From a virus (lineage: Duplodnaviria > Heunggongvirae > Uroviricota > Caudoviricetes), in the IMG/VR virus record IMGVR_UViG_2698536454_000007: a stretch of 38,464 nt of DNA. One strand, given 5' to 3'. The notes below the pieces were generated by a model, which worked only from the letters and a program-made list of their open reading frames with translations, was not told the DNA's origin and did no database searches. Below are positions 4,432 to 15,766 of the stretch, one piece after another (position 1 is the stretch's first letter; each line of letters begins with the position of its first letter). The position numbers and the translations under genes were made by a program.

Positions 4432-4839
4432 ATGGCAAAAGTATTTACACAGGAAGAGCGGGAAAAAATTAAAGGACAGGTGGTGGAACTCGTGCGCCAG
4501 AGCGGTCGTGAGACGTTACGGCAACTGGAAGCTAAAACAGGTGCGACAAGATATCTGATGAGCGTTCTTGCCAGAGAGCTGGTTGCCAGTGGTGATGTAT
4601 ATCACTCTGGCTATGGGGTGTTCCCGTCAGAACGGGCTCGTAAGGACTGGCAAAACGCCCGCAAAAAACTCTCGAGGGCAAAGGTGAAGAAACCTGTTGT
4701 GGTTGATCCGGGCCTTATCTGGACATTACCCGACGGAGAAATACGCCGCTACGACAGGCGTATGAACATAATCTGTCGCGAGTGCCGGAAGAGCGAAGTT
4801 ATGCAGCGTGTATTGGCGTTCTATCAGGGATATGCCTAG
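4432..4839 (+). CDS. Hypothetical protein (135 aa), basic, possibly DNA-binding
   Basis: Strong AGGAGG Shine-Dalgarno 6 nt before ATG 4432; base composition like the phage backbone; no family recognised. Confidence 0.6.
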   Translation: MAKVFTQEEREKIKGQVVELVRQSGRETLRQLEAKTGATRYLMSVLARELVASGDVYHSGYGVFPSERARKDWQNARKKLSRAKVKKPVVVDPGLIWTLPDGEIRRYDRRMNIICRECRKSEVMQRVLAFYQGYA

Positions 4840-5207
4840 AATTGTCACAGGTAATGAAATTAAAGAGTATTGGTTCGGATATGAATTGACATTTTCGCGG
4901 CACAGAGCTAAAAATAGCCTACTTGTTGGTTTTGTGTGAAAAGCAGACATTTTGAGGCTCAGGATTTGTTATCAAATAAGACCAATACTTATCTATATTA
5001 ATACACATTAAATACTGTGCAATACATTATTACATTTTATTAGATAAGCGATATTTAGGGAAAAGAAAAGTCATAGAAAACAGGCCGCTATTTGTTGTTG
5101 GATTTTATAGGCTATATCTAGATTATCTTGCCACTGCGGTCTCTGTTTACCTAACAGCTTGGGCTTCTTTGCATGCAAGTTTGTAATAACAAGAGTAATC
5201 AAACGGA

Positions 5208-6239
5208 ATGTCTATTAATCCTAAACTTAAGCGTATCGCGCGACGCTATCCAGCGTTATTCCAATATGAGTCCCCCTATATGGCAAGAAAATTAATAATA
5301 TTCGGCAACGGTCTCGGTATGGCTTTAGATCCTGCTCACTTCTCCTTAGACAGAGCGTTGGAAGAAATTTGGCATCGCCCCAATTTTTTAAAAGATATCC
5401 ACAAGCAACTTATCGAGCGTTGTCTTCAGCGGCAAGGTCCACCAGAAGGAGAACATGAGTTGGATACCCTTCACCAGGCTGTCACATATTGTAAAGCTCT
5501 TGCTCAAATTGGAGAGGGGAACGTGCATTGGCTTACTGAAGATGGACTAAACTTCCCCAAAATTACCGCCACTTATATTCACAAAGTTGCAACCAGGTTG
5601 CATAATTACGATAAAGGTTTGCCACAAAGATTCGAAAATGCGCTTGTGGAGTTTGTAAAGAACACACACTCACATATCGCGACATTAAACTATGACAAAT
5701 TATTATACAATTCATTCATAGATAATGATATATTCAACGGGTATGATGGGGTTTTAGTTGATGGGATGCTAAGCCACGGATTTTCCTCTGCAGCGCTCGA
5801 ACGGAAATACAATCGTAGGTTTGGTTATTATTTGCACTTGCATGGTTCACCACTATTTATTAATCAGCATGAAAATGTTTTAAAACTTTCACGCTCACAA
5901 CTTACTCTTGACATAGATGAACCTAGTGAGCATATAGTGTTAACTCATATAAAAAGAAAACCGTCAGTTATAGCAGCATCTAATGTTCTTTCTACGTACT
6001 GGGATTATTTGCAGTTTGCATTATTTGAATCAGAAGAAATAATATTGTTTGGTTACTCTGGTCTCGATATTCACCTTAACCTGCTTATTCGACCTTACCT
6101 AACCTCTAAGCCTTTAAGAGTAATTGAGTGGAGCGGTGCTGGTGAACAAAACGCTCGTGAGATATATTGGAAAAACCAGTTGAGACGGGAAGTTACTGTA
6201 ATTAGGTTGGATAACATCACTGATTTTATTGATTGGTAG
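5208..6239 (+). CDS. Standalone SIR2-like (sirtuin-fold, predicted NAD-binding) protein, 343 aa; candidate anti-phage effector
   Basis: Motifs in sirtuin order: Gly-rich IIFGNGLGMA (res ~31-40), TLNYDKLL (compare sirtuin TQNIDxL), HLHGS (catalytic-His HG motif), ILFGYSGLD (GYS/GTS motif). The gene and its flanks are visibly AT-rich relative to neighbours. Weak Shine-Dalgarno (ACGGA). Confidence 0.65.
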   Translation: MSINPKLKRIARRYPALFQYESPYMARKLIIFGNGLGMALDPAHFSLDRALEEIWHRPNFLKDIHKQLIERCLQRQGPPEGEHELDTLHQAVTYCKALAQIGEGNVHWLTEDGLNFPKITATYIHKVATRLHNYDKGLPQRFENALVEFVKNTHSHIATLNYDKLLYNSFIDNDIFNGYDGVLVDGMLSHGFSSAALERKYNRRFGYYLHLHGSPLFINQHENVLKLSRSQLTLDIDEPSEHIVLTHIKRKPSVIAASNVLSTYWDYLQFALFESEEIILFGYSGLDIHLNLLIRPYLTSKPLRVIEWSGAGEQNAREIYWKNQLRREVTVIRLDNITDFIDW

Positions 6240-6553
6240 CGCAATGCGAAGTTAAAGAGGCAGCCTCATATTTATCAGAGCTGGTGTACGTCCAATACAG
6301 GAGGTTATCGTGCTGGTTCTCAAATGCGCGCTGGCTATTGCGGCTGTAGTGGCAATTTATTGTCTTGCTATTGTTCTTATGGATCGCCTTTCTGATTGAT
6401 TTTATATTGGCGAGGTGACGGGAGTTAAGTAGAATTGCTGCGGGTGCTTGAGGCTGTCTGCCTCGGGCATGCCACCGTAAGGCAGACAGAGAAAAGCCCC
6501 AGTTAACATTACGCGTCCTGCAAGACGCTTAACATTAATCTGAGGCCCAATCT

Positions 6554-6766
6554 ATGCTTCACAAACGTAGGTTAGCCTCTTACGCGCCGAAAGGCAAGGA
6601 GAAGCAGGCTATGAAGCAGCAAAAGGCGATGTTAATCGCCCTGATCGTCATCTGTTTAACCGTCATAGTGACGGCACTGGTAACGAGGAAAGACCTCTGC
6701 GAGGTACGAATCCGAACCGGCCAGACGGAGGTCGCTGTCTTCACAGCTTACGAACCTGAGGAGTAA
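6554..6766 (+). CDS. mok: Mok-like reading frame, an in-frame N-terminal extension of hok (70 aa)
   Basis: ATG at 6554 with GAGG upstream; same frame and stop as hok, as in chromosomal mok/hok loci. Confidence 0.5.
   Translation: MLHKRRLASYAPKGKEKQAMKQQKAMLIALIVICLTVIVTALVTRKDLCEVRIRTGQTEVAVFTAYEPEE
6611..6766 (+). CDS. hok: Hok/Gef-family type I toxin (51 aa), HokD/RelF-like
   Basis: Product MKQQKAMLIALIVICLTVIVTALVTRKDLCEVRIRTGQTEVAVFTAYEPEE: a single transmembrane helix plus the conserved Hok C-terminal region; AGGAG upstream; fold-back stem (CTGTCTGCC...GGCAGACAG) in the 5' leader at 6457-6490. Confidence 0.85.
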   Translation: MKQQKAMLIALIVICLTVIVTALVTRKDLCEVRIRTGQTEVAVFTAYEPEE

Positions 6767-15428: not shown

Positions 15429-15520
15429 GCAGAATATTTTGCTGAAAAATGACGTTGGCCAACGCGGGCGGATAACACGAAATCCTGCGAACTGGCAAAA
15501 ACTAAGTGAATAAAAGTAAA

Positions 15521-15560
15521 ACCCCGTTTGTTGGCCGCAAACGGGGTTTTGTGTTTCTGA
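15521..15560 (+). terminator. Strong intrinsic terminator downstream of the endolysin gene
   Basis: 11-12 bp perfect stem AAACCCCGTTTG...CAAACGGGGTTT followed by TGTGTTTCT. Confidence 0.7.
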
Positions 15561-15583
15561 CCTTGAGTAAGGCAAGGGAGAAC

Positions 15584-15766
15584 ATGGGAAAGTATAAACG
15601 AATTCTGTTGAGATTGACTATGAAAAACGGCCTTGAACTGAAAGCGCCTGTAACTGATGACGTCAGCAGAGCGCTGGCTTTTGCTATTAAGTGGGTGGCG
15701 GTCGGTATTGCTGTGTCTCCGATGCTGTATGGGCTGGCAAAACTGGTCATTGCGTTGAAATCGTGA
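15584..15766 (+). CDS. Small hypothetical protein (60 aa) with a C-terminal hydrophobic segment
   Basis: AAGGGAG Shine-Dalgarno 4 nt before ATG 15584; the ORF-track entry at 15506 is a longer version that runs through the terminator hairpin. Confidence 0.4.
   Translation: MGKYKRILLRLTMKNGLELKAPVTDDVSRALAFAIKWVAVGIAVSPMLYGLAKLVIALKS

What the first reader, a model, noticed from the sequence alone, without database searches (positions are those of the whole stretch)
5208..6239. Standalone 343-aa SIR2-like protein in an AT-rich cargo island: candidate single-gene NAD-dependent anti-phage system
The translation carries, in sirtuin order, a Gly-rich dinucleotide-binding loop (IIFGNGLGMA), a TLNYDKLL motif (sirtuin TQNIDxL), an HLHGS motif (catalytic His) and ILFGYSGLD (GYS/GTS motif). 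The gene is visibly AT-rich against its neighbours, has no partner domain (no TIR, HerA, Argonaute or long DSR-type C-terminal extension) and no obvious co-operonic partner. It occupies the slot that the related Qin prophage fills with relBE, beside hok. Known defence sirtuins are usually two-component or much larger, so a compact solo SIR2 carried by a lambdoid prophage may be an undescribed exclusion module that kills by NAD+ depletion. The motif reading is from sequence; the defence role is inference.
Basis: partly seen in the sequence, partly recalled or inferred. Interest (0 to 1): 0.9.

Follow-up and report, generated by a model that had tools for sequence, protein, structure and literature searches.

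The report
Solo SIR2-like gene in prophage
A lambdoid prophage carries a small, partner-less sirtuin-like (SIR2) gene in its variable cargo slot; it most likely protects the host from other phages by destroying NAD+, but this has not been tested, and public databases already label the gene "SIR2 family protein".

The parts
5280..6239 (+). Most probable coding sequence: a 319-aa single-domain SIR2-like (SIR2_2 / 'SIRim' type) protein plus its stop codon. Identical to WP_000101550.1.
5208..5279 (+). 72 nt in frame upstream of ATG 5280. This is the extra 24 codons of the 343-aa ORF. It is most likely a conserved 5' leader and not coding sequence.
   Evidence: It is open and looks motif-like (RYPxLFQ) in enterobacterial relatives. 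But it shows no third-position bias, it is interrupted by stops and a 1-nt deletion in Serratia L087, and it is absent or closed in nearly all other loci. It has no Rfam match and no unusual fold, z = 0.32.
4840..5207 (+). AT-rich (33.7% GC) spacer upstream of the gene. Much of it travels with the gene as part of the cassette, so it is the presumed location of the gene's own promoter or regulatory region.
   Evidence: GC content. About 250 nt are alignable with L084, a non-prophage context with 89% protein identity. There is a sigma-70-like match, TTGACA-18-AAAAAT, at 4886-4915, which is a consensus match only.
5295..5324 (+). Glycine-rich loop after strand beta-1 (IIFGNGLGMA), the predicted dinucleotide-binding loop.
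   Evidence: N10, G11 and G13 are at least 90% conserved and M14 is invariant in 28 family members. Beta-1 spans residues 4-8 in the model.
5682..5705 (+). TLNYDKLL motif carrying the predicted catalytic Asn and Asp (N137 and D139 in 319-aa numbering; N161 and D163 in 343-aa numbering).
   Evidence: Invariant in the family. It aligns with TTNYDKLL of another SIR2_2 protein. It corresponds to N163/D165 of PsSIR2 by motif and spacing. The Pfam SIR2_2 match starts here.
5835..5849 (+). HLHGS motif carrying the predicted catalytic His (H188 in 319-aa numbering; H212 in 343-aa numbering).
   Evidence: H186-L-H188-G-S-P-L-F is invariant. The distance from D139 is 49 residues, against 47 between D165 and H212 in PsSIR2.
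6042..6068 (+). ILFGYSGLD motif (strand then loop), followed by H-L-N; a predicted part of the NAD pocket.
   Evidence: G258, Y259, G261, D263, H265, L266 and N267 are invariant. The strand spans residues 253-257 in the model.

Best explanation
The gene encodes a 319-aa, single-domain enzyme of the immune-type SIR2 group (Pfam SIR2_2/DUF4917 neighbourhood, called 'SIRim' by Bonhomme et al.). It is built like the SIR2 subunit of SIR2-HerA systems but has no HerA or any other partner. It is a self-contained one-gene cassette with its own AT-rich upstream region. Here it sits in the variable cargo slot between the replication module (DUF977 gene) and hokD of a Qin/DicB-type lambdoid prophage. What is shown: the SIR2 fold, intact NAD-pocket and catalytic motifs, purifying selection, a solo architecture across the whole family, cassette-like mobility, and location in prophage cargo slots and next to defence genes. 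What is inferred: the protein is made in the lysogen, is held inactive (probably as a homo-oligomer, with the helical small domain blocking the pocket as in PsSIR2), and is switched on when another phage infects. It would then hydrolyse NAD+ to ADP-ribose and nicotinamide, stopping growth of the infected cell and aborting the infection. The trigger and the way activation happens without HerA are unknown.
Against: There are no functional data for this family. The closest structural relatives have little NADase activity without HerA. There is no recognisable sensor domain, and the protein is unusually conserved (mean column identity 71% across orders), unlike typical fast-evolving phage sensors. 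A different solo SIR2_2 cloned from the P4 hotspot is not among the validated systems. Alphaproteobacterial members (32-44% identity) occupy fixed positions downstream of pncB or enolase, or follow a conserved ~200-aa gene. The gene lies in the orientation of the early-right operon, and no independent promoter has been demonstrated. The cargo slot also holds genes that are not defence genes (QueH, methyltransferases).
Confidence: 0.5

Rival explanations
1. It is an NAD-dependent protein-modifying sirtuin (a deacylase or ADP-ribosyltransferase), or a slow NAD-turnover enzyme, that tunes host or prophage physiology. On this view it is a lysogenic-conversion gene and not an immune effector.
For: Distant family members sit 18-48 nt downstream of pncB (NAD salvage) in 4-5 Rhodobacteraceae genomes, downstream of enolase in 5, and downstream of acetyl-CoA synthetase in Marinomonas. 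22 of 28 relatives hit DUF4917 weakly, and one DUF4917 protein, C. jejuni SliP, was reported to be a deacetylase (PMC10421069). The very high sequence conservation fits an enzyme with a fixed substrate.
Confidence: 0.2
2. It is a non-autonomous orphan: an effector that needs an unlinked partner (a HerA-like ATPase, or a signal made elsewhere), or a leftover of a SIR2-HerA pair that does little on its own.
For: The best structural matches are SIR2 subunits that are autoinhibited until HerA binds. A related two-gene E. coli system exists: PD-T7-2 is a DUF4917/SIR2_2 protein plus a HerA-like ATPase. An alphaproteobacterial sister clade has a conserved overlapping ~200-aa upstream gene in 8 loci.
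Against: The solo state is the rule for the whole family and is kept under purifying selection. The gene moves between genomes as a single-gene cassette, which fits poorly with dependence on a specific unlinked partner. The profile finds no HerA-linked SIR2s at E<=1e-3. The ~200-aa partner has no counterpart in the window.
Confidence: 0.12
3. It serves the phage during its own lytic growth, for example by host takeover or counter-defence through consuming NAD+ or NAD-derived immune signals, and does not defend the lysogen.
For: It has the same orientation as the early-right operon, lies directly after the replication genes, and has no predicted terminator before it. The same slot holds DNA methyltransferases in other prophages, which are typical counter-restriction cargo.
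Against: It is absent from 50,697 sequenced phage records and has no structural relative in BFVD. It is present in non-prophage chromosomal islets. NAD+ loss would harm the phage's own replication.
Confidence: 0.08

Closest known systems
SIR2 subunit of SIR2-HerA (Nezha) antiphage systems (PsSIR2 8W9L; E. coli 8SUB/8J4U), including the divergent E. coli pair PD-T7-2
   Different: No HerA gene is present in the prophage or next to any relative. There is only 14-18% identity and no sequence-level match to PDB chains. The PADLOC SIR2 model scores only 20 bits. The protein is about 40-80 residues shorter.
Single-gene SIR2_2 cargo of the P4-satellite hotspot (system #39, cloned as pFR88; Rousset et al. 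2022)
   Same: It is a one-gene SIR2_2 protein carried in a mobile-element hotspot of E. coli, and the authors annotated it 'likely a NADase'. It shares the TNYDKLL catalytic motif.
   Different: It belongs to a different subfamily: it is longer than 399 aa with a C-terminal extension, and nothing beyond the motif aligns (hhalign probability 7.6%). It is listed among tested but not validated systems.
PADLOC candidate PDC-S21 (single-gene candidate, 336-position profile)
   Same: The profile is of similar size. 23 of 28 family members hit it (best E 3.5e-9) over the N-terminal two thirds.
   Different: The hits are weak (window protein 23 bits) and partial. I could not find any description of PDC-S21 in the literature library.
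ThsA (Thoeris), DSR1/DSR2, SIR2-APAZ/pAgo (SPARSA), Avs5 (SIR2-STAND), KomC
   Different: Each of these has a sensor domain or partner (SLOG/Macro plus TIR, a roughly 700-1000-aa C-terminal domain, APAZ plus pAgo, STAND, KomA/B). None is present here.
DUF4917 protein SliP of Campylobacter jejuni
   Same: It is a small stand-alone SIR2-like protein. 22 of 28 relatives hit DUF4917 weakly.
   Different: It was reported as a secreted deacetylase acting on host histones. The window protein does not hit DUF4917 at E<=10. I did not compare the sequences directly.
Vertebrate FAM118B/FAM118A
   Different: They are eukaryotic, form a two-paralogue partnership, and are only remotely similar.
relBE of the K-12 Qin prophage
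   Same: It occupies the same slot immediately upstream of hokD in a related prophage.
   Different: It is an unrelated toxin-antitoxin pair. Here there is no antitoxin-like neighbour.

Membership tests
Pfam SIR2_2 (PF13289) / immune-type SIR2 ('SIRim') | Score at or above the Pfam gathering threshold | tested here: met
   26.1-26.3 bits against a 24.5 cut-off, E about 1e-5, residues 132-278 of the 319-aa form. All 28 aligned relatives also match. The margin is small.
Pfam SIR2_2 (PF13289) / immune-type SIR2 ('SIRim') | SIR2 Rossmann-type fold with a helical small domain | tested here: met
Pfam SIR2_2 (PF13289) / immune-type SIR2 ('SIRim') | Conserved catalytic Asn/Asp and His | tested here: met
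   N137, D139 and H188 are invariant in 28 sequences. The spacing is 2/49 against 2/47 for N163/D165/H212 of PsSIR2. The TNYD motif aligns with another SIR2_2 protein. Residue-by-residue structural superposition was not available.
Pfam SIR2_2 (PF13289) / immune-type SIR2 ('SIRim') | NAD+ glycohydrolase activity triggered by infection | not testable with these tools
   Needs biochemistry and infection assays.
SIR2-HerA (Nezha) system | Adjacent HerA (DUF87-type) ATPase gene | tested here: not met
   No such gene in the whole prophage. No conserved neighbour in 82 genome loci. No family matched more than 2 of 116 neighbours, and no DUF87/HerA family appears among the 25 families listed.
SIR2-HerA (Nezha) system | Sequence match to the system's SIR2 models | tested here: inconclusive
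   PADLOC SIR2 PDLC04093 E 6e-5, 20 bits. No sequence-level PDB match, with the profile or the single sequence. The fold match is strong.
Thoeris ThsA | C-terminal SLOG or Macro signal-binding domain and a neighbouring TIR (ThsB) gene | tested here: not met
   The protein ends after the SIR2 domain. There is no TIR gene in the prophage.
DSR1 / DSR2 | SIR2 domain fused to a large C-terminal sensor region (protein about 1000 aa or more) | tested here: not met
   The protein is 319 aa, and full-length family members are all 310-397 aa. A true Dsr1 (1277 aa) is a separate neighbouring gene in L033.
SPARSA / Argonaute-associated SIR2 | APAZ domain fusion and an adjacent short pAgo | tested here: not met
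   There are only weak Aga_SIR2 hits (E 3.8e-6) confined to the SIR2 core. There is no pAgo in the prophage.
Classical sirtuin deacylases (CobB/Sir2, PF02146) | Match to PF02146 and a Cys4 zinc-binding module | tested here: not met
   No PF02146 hit at E<=10. There are only two cysteines and no CxxC pairs. Structural similarity is lower than to immune SIR2s.
DUF4917 (PF16263; includes SliP and PD-T7-2A) | Match to PF16263 | tested here: inconclusive
   The window protein has no hit at E<=10. 22 of 28 relatives hit at E<=0.01, best 7.1e-8.
Type II toxin-antitoxin module (as relBE in the same slot) | Small adjacent co-transcribed antitoxin gene | tested here: not met
   There is no conserved small ORF on either side. 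The flanking spacers are 369-441 nt and 315 nt.

The most novel reading that the evidence does not exclude
This is the smallest autonomous SIR2 immune system. On this reading a 319-aa protein senses infection itself, without any sensor domain, HerA, TIR or Argonaute. The sensor could be its exceptionally conserved helical small domain (the invariant YIHKVAT-L-HN helix), or sensing could work through an assembly change of a homo-oligomer. The protein then depletes NAD+. That would define a partner-independent activation mechanism for the SIR2-HerA-type fold.
Probability: 0.3. Interest if true: 0.6.

Novelty: new variant of a known kind. Interest (0 to 1): 0.42.

Why it matters
All well-characterised antiphage SIR2 NADases are controlled by a fused sensor or a partner protein. 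If a 319-aa SIR2 with the SIR2-HerA-type fold works alone, it shows how the catalytic module can be gated without HerA, and it would be a very compact model for structural and trigger-finding work. It would also add a defence function to the widespread DicB/Qin-type prophages of pathogenic E. coli (O55:H7, O111, ETEC) and E. albertii. It would also document the DUF977-hokD junction as a cargo hotspot. If it is instead a protein-modifying sirtuin, it would be a prophage-borne regulator of host physiology. The fixed pncB linkage in Rhodobacteraceae suggests the family may span both immune and metabolic roles.

Tried and rejected
1. The 343-aa reading: rejected in favour of the 319-aa form.

2. 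NCBIfam and PHROGs scans: no useful hits.

3. The conserved 72-90-nt leader as a riboswitch or structured RNA: no Rfam match and no stable fold.

4. PDB sequence searches with the profile and the single sequence: nothing relevant.

5. BFVD viral fold search: nothing. INPHARED phage records: only the hok region matches.

6. Longer Vibrio forms (506 and 541 aa) as evidence of a fused sensor: the N-terminal part has no Pfam domain and essentially no homologues, so it is uninformative and possibly an over-extended ORF.

7. Candidate partner proteins upstream in several loci: no informative domains. Several turned out to be housekeeping genes: enolase, MetH by eye, GatB and Acs.

8. Literature searches for DUF4917, PDC-S21, the WP accessions, solo/orphan SIR2, and lambdoid hotspots: no study of this family.

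9. The Sir2 homologue in Vassallo 2022: it is PD-T7-2A, which is paired with an ATPase, so it is not a precedent for a solo SIR2.

10. One mis-specified call failed on a frame error.

Full report
**1. Observation**

The four motifs are at aa 30-39, 159-166, 210-214 and 279-287. The gene has 39% GC and its upstream spacer 34%, against 52% for the window. GC3 is 0.34 against 0.50-0.56 in the neighbouring genes.

It is a real, selected gene. 662 homologues were found. Substitutions against three relatives fall mainly on third codon positions: 41/34/139, 23/17/53 and 38/30/120.

**2. Start codon**

NCBI's PGAP starts the gene at 5280 (319 aa, WP_000101550.1, "SIR2 family protein"). Enterobacterial relatives keep the 24 upstream codons open, with an apparent RYPxLFQ motif. 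I still judge this stretch to be non-coding, for four reasons:

- Nearly all other relatives have in-frame stops directly upstream of MxRKLIIFGNG.
- Serratia retains the nucleotide sequence, but with stops and a 1-nt deletion.
- The 72 nt show no third-position bias (8/9/11 and 5/6/4), unlike the core gene.
- 24 open codons are not improbable by chance, and the 343-aa forms were listed at that length only because gene callers found that stretch open in them.

The stretch is therefore most likely a conserved leader. It has no Rfam match and no unusual fold.

**3. What the protein is**

- Pfam SIR2_2 is matched just above its cut-off (26.1 against 24.5 bits). All 28 aligned relatives match it too, and 22 also hit DUF4917 weakly.
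- PADLOC gives only weak hits: Aga_SIR2, the single-gene candidate PDC-S21, and SIR2. NCBIfam and PHROGs give nothing useful.
- An AlphaFold2 model built from the family alignment is confident (pLDDT 86.1, pTM 0.87).
- Foldseek against the PDB puts the SIR2 subunits of antiphage SIR2-HerA complexes first (E 1.5e-10), followed by CobB, SPARSA and SIRT2.
- The family alignment shows invariant N137, D139 and H188 (319-aa numbering) and a conserved GNGxGM loop. PsSIR2's catalytic residues are N163, D165 and H212, which is nearly the same spacing (PMC11472057).
- There are only two cysteines, so there is no zinc module, and there is no hit to the classical sirtuin Pfam model.
- At the sequence level the family is isolated: neither the profile nor the single sequence finds any solved SIR2.

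**4. It is solo, and that is the rule for the family**

The prophage runs from the integrase through exonuclease, dicB, repressor/cro, ydaT, a replication-like gene and DUF977. Then come this gene, hokD, rem, DUF968, rusA, a methyltransferase, tRNAs, and the lysis, terminase, head and tail genes. It contains no HerA, Argonaute, TIR or STAND gene.

In 82 loci from different species, all-against-all comparison of the three genes on each side found no conserved neighbour among relatives of at least 45% identity. A Pfam scan of 116 neighbours found no family in more than two of them.

An exhaustive profile search of 1.84 billion cluster representatives returned only 354 hits at E<=1e-3. Every full-length hit among the best 150 is 310-397 aa and covers the whole query.

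Two longer Vibrio forms carry an N-terminal region with no domain and essentially no homologues.

**5. Context**

The DUF977 gene is present in 4016 of 5426 complete E. coli genomes. The SIR2 gene is in 46, and it occupies the same slot in O55:H7, O111:H2 and ETEC lineages. It is 100% identical in E. albertii.

In related prophages the same slot holds other cargo:

| Cargo after the DUF977 gene | Locus |
|---|---|
| QueH | L108, L110 |
| SMEK-domain protein plus a methyltransferase | L109 |
| QueH plus a KwaB-like protein | L111 |
| Dcm-type methyltransferase | L112 |
| alpha/beta-hydrolase | L113 |

In K-12 Qin the slot holds relBE. So it is a variable cargo slot, though not one reserved for defence genes.

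Close relatives occur outside prophages as one-gene islets. One lies between housekeeping genes (L083). One lies beside TacAT and IS110 (L084-86), and about 250 nt of its upstream region are shared with the window. One lies in Serratia next to a PDC-M36A-like gene and SoFic. Other relatives neighbour Dsr1, a type I restriction enzyme, PDC-S49 and a group II intron reverse transcriptase.

19 IMG/VR viral contigs carry the family at different positions in the phage genome. No sequenced phage record in INPHARED carries it, and no curated viral protein structure in BFVD matches the model.

**6. Evidence that complicates the defence reading**

Alphaproteobacterial members (32-44% identity) sit in three fixed contexts:

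- 8 loci have an overlapping, conserved ~200-aa upstream gene that is absent from the window.
- 4-5 Rhodobacteraceae loci lie 18-48 nt downstream of pncB (NAPRTase), and an RF-1-domain gene follows in those checked.
- 5 loci lie downstream of enolase.

One Marinomonas member follows acetyl-CoA synthetase. These look like resident chromosomal genes, and the pncB link suggests NAD turnover and not necessarily immunity.

The closest structural relative, PsSIR2, is an autoinhibited dodecamer whose NADase needs HerA. The protein is also unusually conserved for a phage sensor.

**7. Literature**

I found no study of this family. Related precedents are:

- Vassallo et al. validated PD-T7-2, a DUF4917/SIR2_2 protein paired with a HerA-like ATPase.
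- Rousset et al. list a single-gene SIR2_2 as P4-hotspot system #39 ("likely a NADase"). They cloned it as pFR88, but it appears only among the additional tested systems, not the validated ones. It belongs to a different, longer subfamily that shares only the TNYDKLL motif.
- Bonhomme et al. showed that all known antiphage SIR2s fall in one clade whose neighbourhoods are 12-fold enriched in defence systems.
- Baretic et al. showed that activation of immune sirtuins often involves a change of oligomeric state, and that the stand-alone FAM118 proteins process NAD as filaments.
- C. jejuni SliP, a DUF4917 protein, was reported to be a secreted deacetylase.

**8. Verdict**

The best explanation (about 0.5) is a partner-less immune-type SIR2 NADase, carried as a one-gene cassette in a prophage cargo slot, that aborts infection by depleting NAD+. 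Fold, motifs, solo status, mobility and neighbourhood are shown. Expression, autoinhibition, the trigger and NADase activity are inferred.

The rivals are:

- a protein-modifying or metabolic sirtuin (0.2);
- an orphan effector that needs an unlinked partner (0.12);
- a function serving the phage's own lytic cycle (0.08).

If the defence role is real, this is a new architectural variant of a well-known kind of system. The gene is already annotated as SIR2 in public databases, and solo SIR2_2 cargo has been noticed before, so interest is moderate.

Noticed in passing
window 6442-6766: A complete hok/sok-type type I toxin-antitoxin locus lies immediately downstream. Rfam sok (RF01794) matches 6442-6616 at 116 bits. 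The mok/hok ORF is at 6554-6766, and PGAP annotates it as hokD.
   Followed up: partly
window 5190-5279: A nucleotide-level conserved leader of about 72-90 nt lies upstream of ATG 5280 (blocks CGTATCG, CGCTAYCC, TTATTCC, GAG..CCC). It is kept in E. coli, L083, L084 and Serratia L087 even where the reading frame is broken. It has no Rfam match and no stable fold, and its role is unknown.
   Followed up: partly
L042, L050, L052, L055, L059, L066, L070, L072 (about 5340-6000 in each locus): An alphaproteobacterial sister clade (38-44% identity) has a conserved ~200-aa gene with no Pfam domain, overlapping or abutting the SIR2-like gene (gaps of about -52 to +9 nt). This is probably a two-gene variant of the family.
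   Followed up: partly
L054, L060, L061, L081 (and probably L063), about 4570-5980; L067, L075, L076, L078, L079: In Rhodobacteraceae the SIR2-like gene lies 18-48 nt downstream of pncB (nicotinate phosphoribosyltransferase), on the same strand, and an RF-1-domain gene follows it in the two loci checked. In other genera it follows enolase. This is conserved synteny that looks like housekeeping.
   Followed up: partly
window about 4840-6553, compared with L108-L113 and L114: The junction between the DUF977 gene and hokD is a variable cargo slot in DicB/Qin-type prophages. Alternatives seen there are QueH, a SMEK-domain protein plus a methyltransferase, a KwaB-like protein, a Dcm methyltransferase, an alpha/beta-hydrolase, and relBE. 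QueH in a prophage slot is curious in itself.
   Followed up: partly
L002 7669-8742 (ETEC and swine strains): An IS481-family transposase is inserted between the SIR2 gene and hokD in a group of porcine ETEC genomes. The SIR2 gene remains intact.
   Followed up: no
P0043 (506 aa) and P0051 (541 aa), Vibrio: These longer forms have a ~190-220-aa N-terminal region that is similar between the two but has no Pfam domain and almost no homologues elsewhere. They are either a rare fusion or an over-extended ORF.
   Followed up: partly
L100, L102, L104 (8001-8990 in each locus): In ~44-51-kb viral contigs, a 52-53%-identical family member sits inside the head-morphogenesis region. In L100, the only one annotated, this is about 1.7 kb after the terminase and portal genes. 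It is a cargo insertion at a quite different place in the phage genome.
   Followed up: partly
window about 15440-15690 (from L001 15338-15587): The prophage carries three tRNA genes (Ile, Arg, Arg) after a DNA methyltransferase and before the lysis genes, according to the PGAP annotation of the identical E. coli record.
   Followed up: no
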